From an uncultured archaeon (GTDB lineage: Archaea; Asgardarchaeota; Lokiarchaeia; Sigyniarchaeales; SOKP01), in contig CAZALK010000001.1 in NCBI GenBank assembly GCA_964486045.1, positions 744,242 to 808,241 of the forward strand: a stretch of DNA of 64,000 bases, read 5' to 3'. Below the pieces are notes generated by a model. It searched no databases. It was not told where the DNA came from and worked only from the letters and a program-made list of their open reading frames with translations. Position 1 is the stretch's first letter. Every line of letters starts with the position of its first letter. A program made the position numbers and the translations under genes. Shown here piece after piece: positions 9,294-15,763 of the stretch.

Positions 9294-12245
9294 TTGACAA
9301 CTCTAACTTTAGATACTGAGAGAATTGAAAGTTTAATCCTAAAAGGCATTAATGAAAAAGCAGCTGAAGAAATATTTAATGTTATCGATGAGCATCAAAA
9401 CTTTGCTGATAACGATCTTATTTATAGGTGCTTTAGTTTATTAAACTTGATTTGTGATAAGTCTTCGTCCATTTCGCTAAGAACAGTAAAATATGTACAG
9501 CATTTTATAAATAATTCTGACTCTTGGATACGATTAGTTACTTTAGAAATTTTATATCAGATAAGTATGTTTAGGCCAAATTTATTTATTAATTTAATTA
9601 GTAAAATTAGGGGAAGACTTTACGATCAAGATCCGACAGTGAGAAGACTTACTGTAAAAATTATAGGTAATTTGATTTTAAAATTACATATTGATTTAGA
9701 TGAATTACAAGAAATAATTGAAGAATATACTGAAAAATTAATGGATAATGACTGGAAAGTAAAACTCAATGTGATTAAAACGGTTCAAAATATTTTAAAT
9801 CAAGACTATACAAAAATTAGAAATTTAGAACCTTTGTTATCAATGGTTATTATTAACCTAAGGGATGAAGATGATGATGTTGCGAAAGCAGCTGTAGAGT
9901 TACTAAAAATTCATGGAACATATTTCCTTTCAAAAGAGAAGTTATTTTATATTCTTCTTAACTTGCTGTATAATGAAGAAAATAGAGTAAAAGAATTGAT
10001 AATTTGGCTTTTTGGTGAGATTGGAAAAGAAAAATCTTCTGAAATTATATCTATTATCCCTAAATTAATAAAGCTCTTAAAAGAAAAAGATTATCGTATT
10101 CAACTAAAAGTGATTGAGGCACTTGTTAATATTGCAGAAAATAACTTTGATCAGATATGGGCGAATCTACTGCATTCTTTACAAGGAACTAAGCATTCTT
10201 ATTATAGAAATTCACTAATAAATGCAATATATCAACTCAGTCACAAAAACATTAACATCATTTTTTCTTATTTAATTGATGAATTAGAAAATCCCTCTGA
10301 AATTATTAGGGATGGGATTTCCTTAGTATTTAAACGATTATTTGAAGAATATCAAGTTGAAATAGAAAATGAAATTACAAGAATTTTATATAAACTGGAA
10401 TCACAATATTGGCGTGAAAGGAAGAAAACTATAAATCTACTAAACCAAATTTGTTTCATATTAAAAAATCAAAAAATAGCGGTTTGGATTACTATTGAAC
10501 TCAATAATTCGTTACAAACTGAAAAGGATCCAGAAGTCAAAGATGAAGTATTTTATACACTAGAAAATATTCAGGCAAATTTTAAAAACATCGATACTAC
10601 TATTGAAAGAATTAATAATGATTTAGTTATATTTCAAGGGAAAATACTCAAATTTCAAAAAATACCCGCACAATTTAGGGAAAAACTAAACTCTTATATT
10701 AACAATTTTAAGTTTAATGAAACAGAAGTTCAATTAAATAAAAAGTATAATAAAATTCTAAAAAAGATAAAAAAATTTGATAATATAATTAATAGATTCG
10801 AATTTAAAAGATTAGTATTTGATTTGATTGAAGAGTGGGAGGAAACAAAGGTTCAAATCATTGAGGAATTGAGTATCATAAAAAGTTTTATCTCTGAAAT
10901 CTGTGAAGAGAAAAAAAGCGAATTTTTATTCAAGTTACAAGAAGAAATTAAGTTATTGGATAAACGTATAAGTATTTTAAAAGCTGAGTTTGATTATATA
11001 AAAGAAAATGAATTTAGCGTAGAATTAGATTCTAATATATCTATCCTTACCGGAAATAATGATGAAAATGACAAATTTGTATATATAACTCAAATAAGGA
11101 AAAAGACTTTTAAATTAGATGGTGATATAAGAGAGTTATTGATAAATAATGTTGAATTTGATGATTCCTTTAAAGATCTGCTAAGAAAATGGGTATCAAC
11201 TAAAATTGAGATTCAGGAATACTTAATTGATTTAGATCGACAAATGAAAACAATTAAAGATAGTTTAGTCAGGCAAGTATTCCAGATAAACCAGGTTAAT
11301 AGAACTTCTAATGATATTGGAATTGCTGGCGTGAATGATGAATTAAGAATTCAATTGCTTCAAGGTCATATACAATCTATTATTACTGAGAGAATTGAAG
11401 GTAGCAAGAAATTAAAGGATAACTTTAGTACGTTAACTTCGAAGGTGGAATTTTTAATTAAAAAAAATGAATTCTCAGATGCAAAGAAATTAATTAGATT
11501 AAACTCTTCTCAAATCCAAAACTACATAGAAGAGACAGAAAAACAAATAGAAAACGTTATTGGGAAAGAAAAGGCTCTAGAAGATAATAACATATTCAAT
11601 TTATATGTAAGACCTTACCTTAAGAAATTTTATGCTTCGAAAGATTTATTAATAAATCGGTTAAAGAATTTTGTCAGAAAAAGTGAGAATAAACTCCATC
11701 TAAATCAGATTAAATATTATCGGAAAATTATTAATCCAATTAAATTTGAATTACTTTCATCATATCTAGATTTAGAAAAGGATAAAATAAAGGAGATTGC
11801 TCTTAGATTCATTAATAAAAATAAATTAAATGCCAAAATAATAGATGAAAAACTTTATTATCAAGAACTTGAATCCGATATCCCAGATTCAAAAGAAATT
11901 TTCTTTTTTAAAAATATAAGAACTTCTGGTAATGATATTTATTTAAATTGCAAACTTACTAATCCCTCAAATCTTGAGTTTAGAGATTTTCAGATTTCTT
12001 TAAAAGTGCCTACATATGTTCGTGTACAAAGAGAAGAAAGTTTTCCAAAATATCTCCAACTAAATGAACTGAAACCCGGTAAAGCTTTTAAATTTAATTA
12101 TGTGTTAAAAGTTGATAAACAACAAGAACTAAAGAAGAACTTATTTGACCCCGCTGGTGATGAAATCAAGTTAGAATTATTTTATAGAGACCAATATGAT
12201 AACATGAGAAAGACTACTAAACATATTGAAATCTTTCTACCATAA
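9294..12245 (+). CDS. HEAT-repeat protein with coiled-coil middle, PCI-like winged helix and C-terminal adaptin-appendage-like beta-sandwich
   Basis: HEAT signatures (DQDPTVRR, DNDWKVKL, DEDDDVAKAA); LSSYLDLEKDKIKEIALRFINKNKLNAKI is PCI-like; the C-terminus is beta-rich (LTNPSNLEFRDFQISLKVP). Confidence 0.7.
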   Translation: MTTLTLDTERIESLILKGINEKAAEEIFNVIDEHQNFADNDLIYRCFSLLNLICDKSSSISLRTVKYVQHFINNSDSWIRLVTLEILYQISMFRPNLFINLISKIRGRLYDQDPTVRRLTVKIIGNLILKLHIDLDELQEIIEEYTEKLMDNDWKVKLNVIKTVQNILNQDYTKIRNLEPLLSMVIINLRDEDDDVAKAAVELLKIHGTYFLSKEKLFYILLNLLYNEENRVKELIIWLFGEIGKEKSSEIISIIPKLIKLLKEKDYRIQLKVIEALVNIAENNFDQIWANLLHSLQGTKHSYYRNSLINAIYQLSHKNINIIFSYLIDELENPSEIIRDGISLVFKRLFEEYQVEIENEITRILYKLESQYWRERKKTINLLNQICFILKNQKIAVWITIELNNSLQTEKDPEVKDEVFYTLENIQANFKNIDTTIERINNDLVIFQGKILKFQKIPAQFREKLNSYINNFKFNETEVQLNKKYNKILKKIKKFDNIINRFEFKRLVFDLIEEWEETKVQIIEELSIIKSFISEICEEKKSEFLFKLQEEIKLLDKRISILKAEFDYIKENEFSVELDSNISILTGNNDENDKFVYITQIRKKTFKLDGDIRELLINNVEFDDSFKDLLRKWVSTKIEIQEYLIDLDRQMKTIKDSLVRQVFQINQVNRTSNDIGIAGVNDELRIQLLQGHIQSIITERIEGSKKLKDNFSTLTSKVEFLIKKNEFSDAKKLIRLNSSQIQNYIEETEKQIENVIGKEKALEDNNIFNLYVRPYLKKFYASKDLLINRLKNFVRKSENKLHLNQIKYYRKIINPIKFELLSSYLDLEKDKIKEIALRFINKNKLNAKIIDEKLYYQELESDIPDSKEIFFFKNIRTSGNDIYLNCKLTNPSNLEFRDFQISLKVPTYVRVQREESFPKYLQLNELKPGKAFKFNYVLKVDKQQELKKNLFDPAGDEIKLELFYRDQYDNMRKTTKHIEIFLP

Positions 12246-12383: not shown

Positions 12384-13418
12384 ATGCAAGAGTTAGAAAA
12401 TTATCGATTGACATTGCAAACGAAACTATTTGGTTGAAATTGTAAACTGGATGCGAAAATTTTAGACAGCCTTTTATCTAAAGTAGGTTTAAAAGGAGAT
12501 ATCGAAGATTCTGCTGTAATTCCTGTGCCTAATACCAACCTCGTTATGGTAAAGAACCTTGACATATTCACACCTATCCTAGACGAACCAGAAATAACTG
12601 GAGAGATTGCTGCTGTTAATGTTACTAATGATGTCTTTGCTTTGAATGTTCGCGATATTTCGGGTATGCTCGTATTCCTTGGAATCAAGAAGAACATGCC
12701 AACGTATGTTTCAGAAGGTATACTTCGTGGGATGAAAAATTTCATGGAACACAAAATAAATTCCAAAATCTTAGGGGGTCATACAATATACTCTGAATGG
12801 CCTCTGATAGGTGGAGAAGCTTCAGGATTCGTTGAGAAAAGCAAGATAATACAAAAGAACTATGTTGAATTAGGAGATAAATTAATCCTTACCAAGCCCA
12901 TTGGGAATCAAGCCATTATGGCAGCATATCGTCTACAGAAAAACAACCCCGCCCTTTTAGAAAGTTATTCATCAACCGAAATTGATACTTCAATTGAGAC
13001 CGCAATTAATCTTATGATAACACCGCTTCAAGATGTCGTAAAAACCATATATTCCTACGACGACACATCGTTTATCCATGGAATGACAGACGTGTCTGGA
13101 TTTGGCTTAGCAGGACATTTAAAAGAAATGCTCCAGGATTCACAGCTTTCAGCAGTAATCGAAAAAATCCCAAGTATTAAACTGACACAAGACTTAGCTC
13201 ATGAATTCGGATACAAATATGATGAATGTGAAATGCCTGAGACTGCTGGTGGGATGCTTCTATCTGTAGATCATAAATATGCTAATGAATTCACGGAAAA
13301 ACTAAACAGTGAATACGGAGTGAAAAATTGGATAATAGGGTCGATCGATAACAAAAGCAAACTTAAACATGTTCGCGTTTCCAAAAACGTTGAGCATCTT
13401 GAAATAACTAAAATATAA
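12384..13418 (+). CDS. selD: Selenophosphate synthetase, selenoprotein (Sec at codon 18, TGA 12435-12437), 344 aa
   Basis: MQELENYRLTLQTKLFG-U-NCKL in frame with ORF 12525..13418 places the TGA at the catalytic U/C-x-x-K site. Also DIFTPI, NVTNDVFA, GGHT, LILTKPIG, MTDVSGFGLAGHL and PETAGGML. Confidence 0.95.
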
Positions 13419-13491
13419 CGATGTCGATGAAACAAGCAAAAACGTAGTAATACGAGTGCTTGTTGAGTTTTCCACTGCAATGTGGCATCGT
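13418..13491 (+). promoter_or_regulatory. Eukaryote-type SECIS element in the selD1 3' UTR
   Basis: Helix I ACGATG/CATCGT; core ATGA (13427-13430) and GA (13465-13466); helix II AACAAGCA/TGCTTGTT; apical A-run with mini-stem CGTA-GTAA-TACG. Confidence 0.9.
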
Positions 13492-13559
13492 ACCTTCTTA
13501 AAAAAATTCTTTTTTAAAGTTAAAATTCCATTAGTTCATAGGGATACATTTTCATCATT

Positions 13560-14492
13560 TTGTATTTGGTGTTATTCATAATATTGACAGAAATAAAAGA
13601 AATTCTGAGATTATTGAATGCTACTTCAGAGGATAAAGTTAATTTTAAAGATAAAGTAATTTCTTTTCAAGGTTACAGTTTTATGTTTCGAGATCCCTAC
13701 TTAAAGTCACAAGATTCATATGTAACCGGAAAATTTAGTAGCAAATTCTCTTCGGTGGGATTTTGGAGTGATATCATAAAATATTCTTTAGAAAATCTTA
13801 ACAAAATAAAGAACCTTAATGACCTTAATTTAGAAGATACCAAGCACGATTTTCTTTACGGGGGTTCTTTGAAGACACTCGTGCCATCCTTAAAGTTTGG
13901 AGGGGATGAAGTTTTGTTTGATGTCTGGATACTTGTAAAAACTCCCGAGGGTTTCATTTTTCCCGCAACGCTTTACTATGGTAAAACAGGAACATCGTTA
14001 GGGGGTTGGTATATAGATGATGCCAAGGAAGTATTCCCCCCCGAGTTTTTTTCACTCATCAATTTCAGCCCATTTGATTTCGCACCCGAAGAGCGCAATG
14101 CGTTTATTGAAGCTCTTGAACTCTCACTTAAGATGGTACCCGTTACTGATTATTACGGCATCTGTAAGGGGGAGAATGGCTATACAATTATGGGTGTTAA
14201 AGATGGCAAACCATACCTCAAGGAACTTGGTTGGGTCTATGACGAGGTCAAAGAAGATAGGTCTTTTGACACGACAACAGATTTAAGAAAACGTTATTAT
14301 GTTGAGGGATATTTAGAAGAGCAAAACTTCGCGATTTGGTGTGCTGACTGTATTCTTGAACAAGAAATTGAAGTCCCTCATTATCCAATTTTTGTTCAGG
14401 GATATGAAGATAGCCCAGTTTGCGAGATTTGTGATAAAGAATTGAAAGTAAAAGTAGTTAATTACAGCAATGAACCAAGTGAAGGAGATTAA
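13560..14492 (+). CDS. Hypothetical protein with C-terminal CxxC...CxxC zinc finger; paralog of the broken gene at 37826-38899
   Basis: 310-aa ORF with CADC...CEIC; shares LKFGGDExLFxVxxLxKTP...FPATxY with 38120..38899. True start may be TTG 13584. Confidence 0.7.
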   Translation: MYLVLFIILTEIKEILRLLNATSEDKVNFKDKVISFQGYSFMFRDPYLKSQDSYVTGKFSSKFSSVGFWSDIIKYSLENLNKIKNLNDLNLEDTKHDFLYGGSLKTLVPSLKFGGDEVLFDVWILVKTPEGFIFPATLYYGKTGTSLGGWYIDDAKEVFPPEFFSLINFSPFDFAPEERNAFIEALELSLKMVPVTDYYGICKGENGYTIMGVKDGKPYLKELGWVYDEVKEDRSFDTTTDLRKRYYVEGYLEEQNFAIWCADCILEQEIEVPHYPIFVQGYEDSPVCEICDKELKVKVVNYSNEPSEGD

Positions 14493-14606: not shown

Positions 14607-15665
14607 ATGCCTAGAAAAATAGAATATAGGTTAACAAAGCAAGTGAAAATTTTTGGTTGATCATGTAAATTAGGTGCTAATGAATTACATAAATTGCTAG
14701 AGAAAACTGGTTTGGCTGGAGATATTGAAGATGCTGCCATTATTCCTGTTCCTAATACTGACATTGTTCAAGTGAAGAGTTTAGACATTTTTACCCCTAT
14801 CGTTGATGAGCCTAATATAATGGGGCAAATAGCTGCTTGCAATGTAACGAACGATCTTTTCGCAATGAATGTTCCTGAAATATCGGGGATGCTGGTCTTT
14901 TTAGGAATTAGTACTAATACACCAATGGAGGTTGCTGAGGGAATATTAGAAGGAATCAAATATTTTGTGGAAAAAAAGATCCATTCTAAAGTAGTGGGAG
15001 GCCATACTATTTACTCCGAGTGGCCTTTAATCAAAAAAGTTGTCCTTTTTTGAGGGGAGATCGGAGGAGAGGCTTCTGGATTTGTCCACAAGGATTCTAT
15101 AATTTTGAAACAAGGTGTAAAAAAAGGTGATAAGTTGATATTAACAAAACCAGTCGGTATTCAACCAGTAATGGCTGCATATAGAATGTTAAAAGACTTT
15201 CCTGAAATGTTAGAAGAGTTTTCTAAAAAAGAACTTAATAAATCTATCGATATTGCAATTAAGATAATGACTACGTCAAATCAGAATGTGGTGAAGACTA
15301 TTCACTCTCTTAATGATTTTTCATTTATTCATGCAATGACAGACATTACAGGCTTCGGGCTTGCTGGACACATGCTAGAAATTCTTCAGAACTCGAATTT
15401 ATCAGCAATTATTGAAACAATCCCCTCTATTAAACTCTCTGAAAGTTTATCAAAAGAGATGGGTTATGCTTTTGATGAATGTAAATGTGGAGAGACGGCT
15501 GGGGGTATGCTCATGGCGGTCGATTCTTCAAAAACCGAGGATTTTTCACACACTCTCTCAAGTAATGGAATATTGAATTGGATTGTAGGTACTATTGATA
15601 CAATATCTCCTGGACTTGTGAGAATTTCAAAAAATGTTAAAAATTTAGAAATTTCAAGAATATAA
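14607..15665 (+). CDS. selD: Second selenophosphate synthetase, selenoprotein (Sec at codon 18, TGA 14658-14660), split by a 30-nt intron; join(14607..15029,15060..15665), 342 aa
   Basis: MPRKIEYRLTKQVKIFG-U-SCKL; ORFs 14694..15053 and 15105..15665 are in one frame and align end to end with selD1 once 15030-15059 is removed. Confidence 0.92.
15030..15059 (+). other. Archaeal BHB/BHL-type mRNA intron in selD2 (30 nt)
   Basis: Exon helix CTCCGA/TCGGAG, 4-bp central helix CCTT/GGGG, 3-nt bulges TA^A and AG^A, 9-bp intron stem TCAAAAAAG/CTTTTTTGA. Cutting after the second bulge base gives TGG CCT TTA|ATC GGA GGA GAG = WPLIGGE, as in selD1. Confidence 0.88.
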
Positions 15666-15734
15666 CTCCAAAAAGAATGAATTTTGTGAAGAAATGTTAG
15701 TCGCAAAATAACTGCCTAGCAAGGGTATTTGGAG
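15666..15734 (+). promoter_or_regulatory. SECIS-like element in the selD2 3' UTR (variant core)
   Basis: Helix I CTCCAAA/TTTGGAG; ATGA at 15677-15680; helix II ATTTTGTGA/TCGCAAAAT; AAA in the apical loop. The 3' core reads AA rather than GA. Confidence 0.75.
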
Positions 15735-15763
15735 AAAATAATTTAACAAATTGAAAAATCTGC

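What the first reader, a model, noticed from the sequence alone, without database searches (positions are those of the whole stretch)
15014..15066. tRNA-type (BHB/BHL) intron inside a protein-coding selenoprotein gene, selD2
Seen: relative to paralog selD1, selD2 has exactly 30 extra nt (15030-15059) right after the conserved GGHT motif. The site folds as exon helix CTCCGA(15014-19)/TCGGAG(15061-66), central 4-bp helix CCTT/GGGG, 3-nt bulges TAA and AGA (the latter faces an unpaired GTGG, so it is a relaxed bulge-helix-loop), and a perfect 9-bp intron stem. Known: the archaeal splicing endonuclease cuts after the second base of each bulge, and mRNA introns of this type are best known from crenarchaeal cbf5. 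Applying that rule removes exactly the 30 nt and restores WPLIGGE. Inference: an Asgard mRNA is spliced by the tRNA endonuclease/RtcB pathway, and annotators would miscall the gene as fragments. I know of no description of a BHB intron in selD but could not search.
Basis: partly seen in the sequence, partly recalled or inferred. Interest (0 to 1): 0.95.

Follow-up and report, generated by a model that had tools for sequence, protein, structure and literature searches.

The report
tRNA-type mini-intron inside Asgard selD
The second selenophosphate synthetase gene of this Loki-type Asgard archaeon is not broken: it carries a 30-base insert shaped like an archaeal tRNA intron, and related genomes keep it in a way that fits only removal from the mRNA, which papers document for one other archaeal protein gene (cbf5).

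Summary
selD2 (14607-15665, +) carries exactly 30 extra nt (15030-15059) with an in-frame TGA, compared with its paralogue selD1 and 34 same-genus orthologues.

I found 12 homologous inserts at the same codon in other Loki-type genomes and metagenomes, in both selD paralogues. All 13 keep a 4-bp helix between exon and insert, flanked by two 3-nt bulges. That helix covaries (C-G/U-A/U-G) between synonymous exon sites and the insert. Four inserts are 28-29 nt and shift the frame, yet the exons downstream stay under purifying selection (pN/pS 0.15-0.23). Inside the insert pN/pS is 1.34. Cutting after the second nucleotide of each bulge restores WPL|IGGEASG every time.

The genome encodes two EndA homologues and RtcB. 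It has the same 30-nt design in rpoA1 (exact Pfam junction 73|74) and other genes.

No RNA run was listed, so splicing itself is inferred. This scan has noted such introns before on other DNA, including selD of another Asgard class. I checked that case: the intron sits at a different codon. I found no paper describing it.

The parts
14607..15029 (+). selD2 exon 1 (ATG to ...TGG CCT TTA), N-terminal AIRS domain
   Evidence: Translation. 83% identical to the G013 orthologue. pN/pS against G013 is 0.11.
14658..14660 (+). Sec codon (TGA, codon 18) in the FG-U-SCK motif
   Evidence: Aligned with the single TGA of all same-genus selD genes.
15014..15019 (+). 5' strand of the 6-bp exon-exon helix of the MFE fold (pairs with 15061-15066); not conserved in homologues
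   Evidence: 81% of cells paired, no double changes.
15021..15023 (+). 5' strand of the alternative outer helix h in the canonical register (UGG, pairs with 15061-15063 UCG)
   Evidence: G.U and U.G invariant; the middle pair is G-C, G.U or a mismatch.
15024..15027 (+). Central helix H, 5' strand (CCUU, exon; Pro codon and first base of the Leu codon)
   Evidence: 4/4 pairs in 13/13 homologues. Covaries with 15054-15057.
15028..15030 (+). 5' bulge UA|A; predicted cut after 15029
   Evidence: Unpaired in the MFE and in the consensus fold. The cut rule restores the frame.
15030..15059 (+). 30-nt BHB-type intron (in-frame TGA at 15051-15053)
   Evidence: Absent from selD1 and from 34 of 35 same-genus selD2 orthologues. 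Homologous inserts appear in 12 other genes.
15031..15053 (+). Intron hairpin h': 9-bp stem 15031-39/15045-53, loop 15040-44
   Evidence: 94% of cells paired across 8 sequences; two pairs changed on both sides.
15054..15057 (+). Central helix H, 3' strand (GGGG, intron)
15058..15060 (+). 3' bulge AG|A; predicted cut after 15059
15060..15665 (+). selD2 exon 2 (ATC GGA GGA GAG ... stop), rest of AIRS plus AIRS_C
   Evidence: Translation. pN/pS against G013 is 0.19 downstream of the stop-bearing insert.
15666..15735 (+). Structured 3' UTR, candidate Loki-type SECIS of selD2
   Evidence: Fold z-score -2.59. Position as described for Loki SPS in PMC4989117. Not modelled further.
12384..13418 (+). 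Paralogue selD1 (Sec TGA 12435-12437), without an intron here
   Evidence: The selD1 clade is separate from selD2.

Best explanation
Positions 15030-15059 are a bulge-helix-bulge (HBh'-class) mini-intron in the selD2 pre-mRNA. In the transcript, exon bases CCUU pair with intron bases GGGG to form the 4-bp central helix. A 9-bp intron hairpin stacks on one side of it. The 3-nt bulges UA|A and AG|A lie on opposite strands. The two-subunit splicing endonuclease (EndA) cuts after the second nucleotide of each bulge. RtcB then joins ...CCUUUA to AUCGGA..., giving WPL-IGGEASG and a normal 342-residue Sec-containing SelD, and probably releases a 30-nt circle. Shown here: the insert, its fold, its homologues, the covariation, the frame-breaking variants, selection on the exons, and the presence of the enzymes. 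Inferred: cleavage, ligation and circularisation.
For: (1) The insert is precisely present or absent at one codon. Only G000 and G014 among 161 genomes of the class carry it, and 34 of 35 same-genus selD2 orthologues lack it. (2) There are 12 further homologous inserts at the same codon, in both the selD1 and selD2 clades. (3) All 13 with DNA have 4/4 central-helix pairs in one register and 3-nt bulges, whether 28, 29 or 30 nt long (L035 with its boundaries shifted by 2 nt); the cut rule restores WPL|IGGEASG each time. (4) Covariation: pair 22-51 reads CG:3 UA:3 UG:2 and pair 23-50 reads UG:4 UA:3 CG:1, linking synonymous exon sites to insert bases. Two stem pairs changed on both sides. 94.5% of cells are paired, against at most 71% when the partners are slid. 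The covariation score is reached by only 2-3 of 500 shuffles. (5) In G000 the CGA>TGA change is matched by G>A on the other arm (G-C to A-U) relative to its sister L034. (6) Four of 13 inserts are not a multiple of 3 and one has a stop. One MAG has both paralogues interrupted (28 and 29 nt). All exons are intact, and the downstream exons show pN/pS 0.15-0.23 at pS 0.45-0.69. (7) Within the insert, pN/pS is 1.34 at pS 0.15, against 0.17 at pS 0.74 in the flanks. The constraint is on RNA, not on a peptide. (8) G000 has two EndA homologues and RtcB. Asgard EndA is the (alpha-beta)2 type with the L1 loop that broadens specificity (PMC5829648). (9) The same 30-nt design interrupts rpoA1 with a TAA, with the Pfam RNA_pol_Rpb1_1 profile split exactly at 73|74, and also interrupts other genes.
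Against: There is no RNA evidence for this gene or organism. The outer exon helix is weak or not conserved, so the 3' cut site lies in a relaxed context. In G014 the minimum-energy fold is a competing exon-exon helix rather than the BHB. Nine of 13 inserts are exactly 30 nt, and eight of these have an open frame, so translation of unspliced mRNA is possible there. The shuffle statistics rest on 8 related sequences. The 29-nt length of L289 differs from its sister by a single T in a T-run and could be an assembly error.
Confidence: 0.88

Rival explanations
1. The 30 nt are translated as a 10-residue insertion in SelD2. In G000 the second UGA is read as selenocysteine, directed by the 3'-UTR SECIS that already serves codon 18.
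For: The insert is in frame. Eight of the 13 inserts have an open frame. Loki-type SECIS elements serve several UGAs in other selenoproteins (PMC4989117). selD2 has a structured 3' UTR.
Against: Four homologous inserts shift the frame. pN/pS within the insert is 1.34, with radical changes (G/R/E, L/P, K/E) that follow base pairing. The UGA aligns with CGA or CAA in homologues, not with Cys. The insert sits inside the nearly invariant motif GGHTIYSEWPLIGGEASG. TAA-bearing inserts of the same design in rpoA1 cannot be read through.
Confidence: 0.04
2. selD2 of G000 is a recent pseudogene, inactivated by a 30-nt palindromic insertion, and selD1 carries the function.
For: There is a paralogue, so loss could be tolerated. 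A stop lies in the frame.
Against: The exon downstream of the stop has pN/pS 0.19. The terminal branch is not lengthened. The insert is homologous to inserts in 12 other genes and keeps a covarying structure. In one MAG both paralogues carry frame-shifting inserts and have intact exons.
Confidence: 0.03
3. Ribosomes bypass the insert by programmed translational hopping, as in T4 gene 60, with the hairpin as the stimulator.
For: A hairpin lies in the gap. ATC stands at both ends in G000.
Against: Take-off and landing codons do not match in several homologues (ATC to ATA in L033, L034, L039; TTC to ATC in L287). No stop follows the take-off codon. The covarying exon-intron helix with 3-nt bulges is not a feature of bypassing. 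No such system is known in archaea (my own knowledge).
Confidence: 0.02
4. A conserved RNA hairpin with another role (pause site, protein-binding site, small mobile palindrome) that is not excised.
For: The hairpin is the best-conserved part. The distribution is patchy, like that of a mobile element.
Against: This does not explain how frame-shifted or stop-bearing genes stay under selection. It does not explain why the helix that bridges exon and insert covaries at exactly BHB spacing.
Confidence: 0.03

Closest known systems
cbf5 pre-mRNA intron of Crenarchaeota (Desulfurococcales, Sulfolobales; Watanabe 2002; Yokobori 2009, PMC2738675)
   Same: A BHB-type intron inside a protein-coding sequence, removed by the tRNA splicing endonuclease and ligase. 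It shows lineage-specific presence and loss, and it causes gene mis-annotation.
   Different: The gene (selD), the phylum (Asgard, Loki-type) and the size (28-30 nt) differ. Here the intron is present at one codon in two paralogues. It is one of many such mini-introns in the same genome. Splicing is experimentally shown for cbf5 but not here.
Non-canonical (HBh'/BHL) introns of archaeal pre-tRNAs, abundant in Asgard tRNA genes (PMC5829648; PMC11291895; bioRxiv 10.64898/2026.10.13.758758)
   Same: The same motif geometry (4-bp helix, 3-nt bulges, intron hairpin), the same presumed enzymes, and repeated gain and loss.
   Different: The host RNA is an mRNA. [quoted passage not shown]
30-nt BHB insert in selD of another Asgard class
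   Same: The same gene family, the same 30-nt design, an in-frame stop (TAA), and restoration of a conserved motif on removal.
   Different: The codon differs: NDVY|A.GA, about 60 codons upstream of the Loki site. The two are independent colonisations.
HAC1/XBP1 unconventional mRNA splicing (Ire1 plus tRNA ligase/RtcB)
   Same: Spliceosome-independent endonuclease cuts at stem-loop sites in an mRNA, followed by RtcB-type ligation (my own knowledge).
   Different: The nuclease (Ire1) and the motif differ, and that splicing is regulated. There is no evidence of regulation here.

Membership tests
Archaeal BHB (EndA-dependent) intron | 4-bp central helix flanked by two 3-nt bulges on opposite strands | tested here: met
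   4/4 pairs and 3-nt bulges in 13/13 homologous inserts (one with boundaries shifted by 2 nt). 100% of cells paired, with CG/UA/UG covariation.
Archaeal BHB (EndA-dependent) intron | At least one flanking helix (h' in the intron or h in the exons) | tested here: met
   h' is 9 bp in G000 and 94% paired across 8 sequences. h is weak (3 wobble-rich pairs, 87.5% paired) or non-conserved (the 6-bp alternative). The class is therefore HBh', possibly hBHBh'.
Archaeal BHB (EndA-dependent) intron | Cuts after the second nucleotide of each bulge give a functional joined RNA | tested here: met
   Removal restores WPL|IGGEASG and the frame for inserts of 28, 29 and 30 nt. The product matches intron-less orthologues.
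Archaeal BHB (EndA-dependent) intron | Host has the splicing endonuclease and an RtcB ligase | tested here: met
   Two PF01974 hits (102 and 67 bits) and one PF01139 hit (557 bits) in G000. The subunit type and broad specificity come from the literature only (PMC5829648).
Archaeal BHB (EndA-dependent) intron | Excision seen in RNA (spliced junction, circular intron) | not testable with these tools
   No RNA run was listed for this DNA.
Second selenocysteine codon (recoded UGA) | UGA aligned with Sec or Cys in homologues within a conserved, translated segment | tested here: not met
   Homologues have CGA or CAA there, or lack the segment altogether. pN/pS in the segment is 1.34.
Programmed translational bypass (T4 gene 60 type) | Matched take-off and landing codons, with a stop directly after take-off | tested here: not met
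   ATC/ATA and TTC/ATC mismatches in homologues; no adjacent stop.

The most novel reading that the evidence does not exclude
The selD intron is one member of a large, turning-over population of roughly 30-nt BHB mini-introns in protein-coding genes of Asgard archaea, essential genes such as rpoA1 included. In that case the tRNA endonuclease/RtcB pathway works as a general mRNA-splicing system in the closest prokaryotic relatives of eukaryotes. Homologous introns sit at the same codon of two paralogues and are scattered over the gene tree, which further suggests that these introns spread by recombination or gene conversion rather than only by descent.
Probability: 0.75. Interest if true: 0.92.

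Novelty: new member of a known kind. Interest (0 to 1): 0.85.

Why it matters
Published work confirms endonuclease-type splicing of an archaeal protein-coding mRNA only for cbf5 in Crenarchaeota (PMC2738675). I found no paper reporting it for Asgard archaea or for selD.

If this is confirmed, a key gene of selenocysteine synthesis needs two recoding steps: UGA read as Sec, and intron removal. Gene callers systematically split or truncate such genes, which distorts Asgard gene inventories and selenoproteome surveys.

Together with the rpoA1 and other cases in the same genome, it would show that mRNA splicing by the tRNA machinery is routine in the lineage closest to eukaryotes. That bears on how interrupted protein genes and their processing arose.

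It is directly testable: one RT-PCR, or one metatranscriptome mapped to this locus.

Tried and rejected
**RNA evidence.** No RNA holder was listed for the gene. Read laying could only show DNA contigs.

**Pattern scans.** The scans of metagenome contigs and genome contigs used too degenerate a pattern.

**Rfam and ARAGORN.** Neither found anything in the window.

**AlphaFold2.** The model of the G014 protein with the insert was poor (mean pLDDT 59.5, N-domain below 50). I make no structural argument about where the 10 residues would lie.

**Motif-only genome scan.** BHB-like hairpins are as frequent in the reversed genome as in the real one (196 against 194 at 30 nt). The motif alone therefore cannot find introns. 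The ORF-merge filter gave 2778 candidates, mostly gene boundaries. Only those with homology support are reported. One candidate, a DEAD-box helicase at C5:152059, was rejected because the 'intron' encodes the conserved VATDVA motif (by eye).

**Weaker cases.** The G014 minimum-energy fold is not the BHB. L035 (P0008) has a divergent insert with a weak hairpin and fits only with a 2-nt shift of the boundaries.

**Other readings considered and rejected.** Group I or II intron and intein: too small, and no such features. Assembly artefact: argue against it.

Full report
**1. The observation**

The window holds two tandem selenophosphate synthetase genes. selD1 is at 12384-13418 and selD2 at 14607-15665. 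Each has a TGA at codon 18 in the FG-U-xCK motif.

Relative to selD1, selD2 has exactly 30 extra nucleotides, 15030-15059. In frame they read IKKVVLF-TGA-GE and lie between WPL and IGGEASG. ATC stands at both ends, so the DNA-level boundaries can slide by up to 3 nt.

The energy alone is unremarkable (z = -1.56).

A Logan contig of the probable source run is identical over 14900-15200 at depth 242.

**2. Distribution**

In 35 same-genus genomes both paralogues are present. Every selD2 orthologue lacks the insert except that of G014, which has 30 nt at the same codon without a stop. A DNA pattern scan of 161 genomes of the class found only these two.

A search of the large protein collection, scored on the region around the insert, found nine more proteins with a 10-residue insert at the same place. 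A second search used the truncated N-terminal ORF as query. It found five proteins that run out of frame just after WPL. Public records name some of these truncated N-terminal pieces 'AIR synthase related protein', partly marked 'partial'.

I obtained DNA for 13 inserts in all:
- nine are 30 nt long
- three are 29 nt long
- one is 28 nt long

In one MAG (L287) both paralogues are interrupted, by 28 and 29 nt.

On a maximum-likelihood tree three insert-bearing genes fall in the selD1 clade and eight in the selD2 clade. They are scattered among intron-less orthologues, and at least eight gains or losses are needed. The sister of the G000 gene (L034) has the insert with CGA where G000 has TGA.

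**3. RNA structure**

In an ungapped alignment of eight inserts with their flanks (A1):
- The 4-bp helix between exon bases (third base of the Pro codon, first base of the Leu codon) and insert bases 25-28 is paired in every sequence. It covaries: CG:3/UA:3/UG:2 at one pair and UG:4/UA:3/CG:1 at the next.
- The 9-bp intron stem is 94% paired, and two of its pairs changed on both sides.
- Sliding the 3' partners drops pairing from 94.5% to at most 71%.
- Only 2-3 of 500 shuffles reach the observed covariation score.
- RNAalifold recovers the same helix, 5' bulge and stem.

For all 13 inserts, whatever their length, the 4/4-paired helix and the two 3-nt bulges keep the same register relative to the two ends (L035 only with its boundaries shifted by 2 nt). 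Cutting after the second bulge nucleotide restores WPL|IGGEASG. Length differences are taken up inside the hairpin. That is what a BHB substrate predicts and what a translated segment does not.

The outer exon helix is weak. The 6-bp helix of G000 is not conserved. The canonical-register helix has three wobble-rich pairs. The motif is therefore HBh', possibly hBHBh'. In G014 a competing exon-exon helix is the minimum-energy fold.

**4. Coding or not**

Summed over sequence pairs, the flanks have pS 0.74 and pN/pS 0.17. The insert has pS 0.15 and pN/pS 1.34. 'Synonymous' sites are conserved and amino-acid changes are free and radical (G/R/E, L/P, K/E), following base pairing.

The G000 exon downstream of the TGA has pN/pS 0.19 against its orthologue in G013. 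The downstream exons of the four frame-shifting cases have 0.15-0.23 at pS 0.45-0.69. These are not decaying genes.

Take-off and landing codons for a ribosomal hop do not match in several homologues.

The Sec read-through idea could apply only to G000. It is contradicted by the frame-shifting relatives and by the lack of peptide constraint.

**5. Machinery and genomic context**

G000 encodes two EndA-family proteins and RtcB. The literature assigns Asgard archaea the (alpha-beta)2 enzyme with the L1 loop, which allows relaxed motifs (PMC5829648).

ARAGORN finds only 31 tRNA genes in this 99%-complete genome, 20 of them with introns. This is in line with reports of heavily interrupted Asgard tRNA genes (PMC11291895; bioRxiv 10.64898/2026.10.13.758758).

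I ran my own scan for BHB geometry whose removal merges two long ORFs. It recovered selD2 and the following:
- A 30-nt, TAA-bearing insert in rpoA1 that splits GHFGH|IELARP. The two halves match Pfam RNA_pol_Rpb1_1 positions 2-73 and 74-312.
- A 30-nt insert in an AIR-synthase-like gene.
- A 30-nt insert in a Zn-ribbon/LOR gene.
- A 32-nt candidate in an AAA ATPase; this one is less certain.

First-stage notes of this scan list further cases in the same genome (fwdA, histone, cdhA, EF-2, uL11, adk, a Rab-like GTPase). Apart from rpoA1 and the AIR-synthase-like gene, I did not check them.

**6. Comparison with what is known**

The mechanism is that of the cbf5 pre-mRNA intron of Crenarchaeota. 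The papers I searched give cbf5 as the only experimentally confirmed archaeal mRNA intron of this type (PMC2738675).

Neither the two Asgard selenoproteome papers (PMC4989117, PMC11227280) nor my full-text searches mention an intron in selD or BHB introns in Asgard protein genes.

Earlier notes of this scan describe a 30-nt selD intron in Jordarchaeia. I checked two genomes of other Asgard classes (G277, G274). They do carry a 30-nt, TAA-bearing BHB insert in selD, but at another codon, NDVY|A.GA, about 60 codons upstream. selD has therefore been colonised at least twice.

**7. Verdict**

I put the probability that the 30 nt are removed from the mRNA by the EndA/RtcB pathway at about 0.88. The remaining doubt is that no RNA data exist for this organism and that the 3' cut site has only a weak outer helix.

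As a kind of system it is known (cbf5), so I class it as a new member of a known kind. The interest is high because it lies in Asgard archaea, in a selenoprotein gene that also needs UGA recoding, and within a genome-wide set of mini-introns that includes rpoA1.

Noticed in passing
L283:502-531 (= G000:C13:44101-44130): A 30-nt BHB-shaped insert ending in an in-frame TAA splits rpoA1 at GHFGH|IELARP. The two halves match Pfam RNA_pol_Rpb1_1 positions 2-73 and 74-312 exactly.
   Followed up: partly
L284:672-701; L285:653-682 (- strand); L286:695-726: Further candidates of the same design: 30 nt in an AIR-synthase-like gene, 30 nt in a Zn-ribbon/LOR-family gene, and 32 nt after the Walker B motif of an AAA ATPase. 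The last is less certain, since its exon 2 has no Pfam hit.
   Followed up: partly
L287:469-496 and L287:1856-1884: In one Promethearchaeota MAG (GCA_054391335.1) both selD paralogues carry frame-shifting inserts (28 and 29 nt) at the same codon. Each is annotated as two ORFs.
   Followed up: yes
L293:1774-1803 and L294:1759-1788: selD of two genomes from other Asgard classes (G277, G274) has a 30-nt, TAA-bearing BHB insert at a different codon (NDVY|A.GA). Its stems differ between the two genomes but pair in each.
   Followed up: partly
window 13560-14492: A 310-aa ORF of unknown function lies between selD1 and selD2 here. In the relatives I looked at (L033, L034, L036, L038, L287) the two paralogues are only about 300-400 nt apart.
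   Followed up: no
window 13419-13495 and 15666-15735: There are structured 3' UTRs directly after both selD stop codons. The selD1 one reads AUGA-stem-GA, like a Loki-type SECIS (z = -3.06 and -2.59).
   Followed up: partly
G000 whole genome: ARAGORN finds only 31 tRNA genes, 20 of them with introns, in a genome rated 99% complete. This suggests many tRNA genes are interrupted at non-canonical sites.
   Followed up: no
G071:C18:1115-2134: A same-family selD has an in-frame TAA besides the Sec TGA, with no change in length. It could be a sequencing error, a pseudogene or something else.
   Followed up: no
window 9294-12245: A 983-aa ORF lies upstream of selD1. Its counterpart in L037 carries Adaptin_N/HEAT Pfam hits, so this is a conserved neighbour with a eukaryote-like domain.
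   Followed up: no
G000:C32 about 1280-1420 and the region near 14779 on the - strand: Repeated GC-rich units (…CCCCACACACGTGGGGGTGTACCGG…) with spacers showed up in the scan output. This may be a CRISPR array. Contigs C40 and C45 are GC-rich and look foreign (contamination is rated 7.8%).
   Followed up: no
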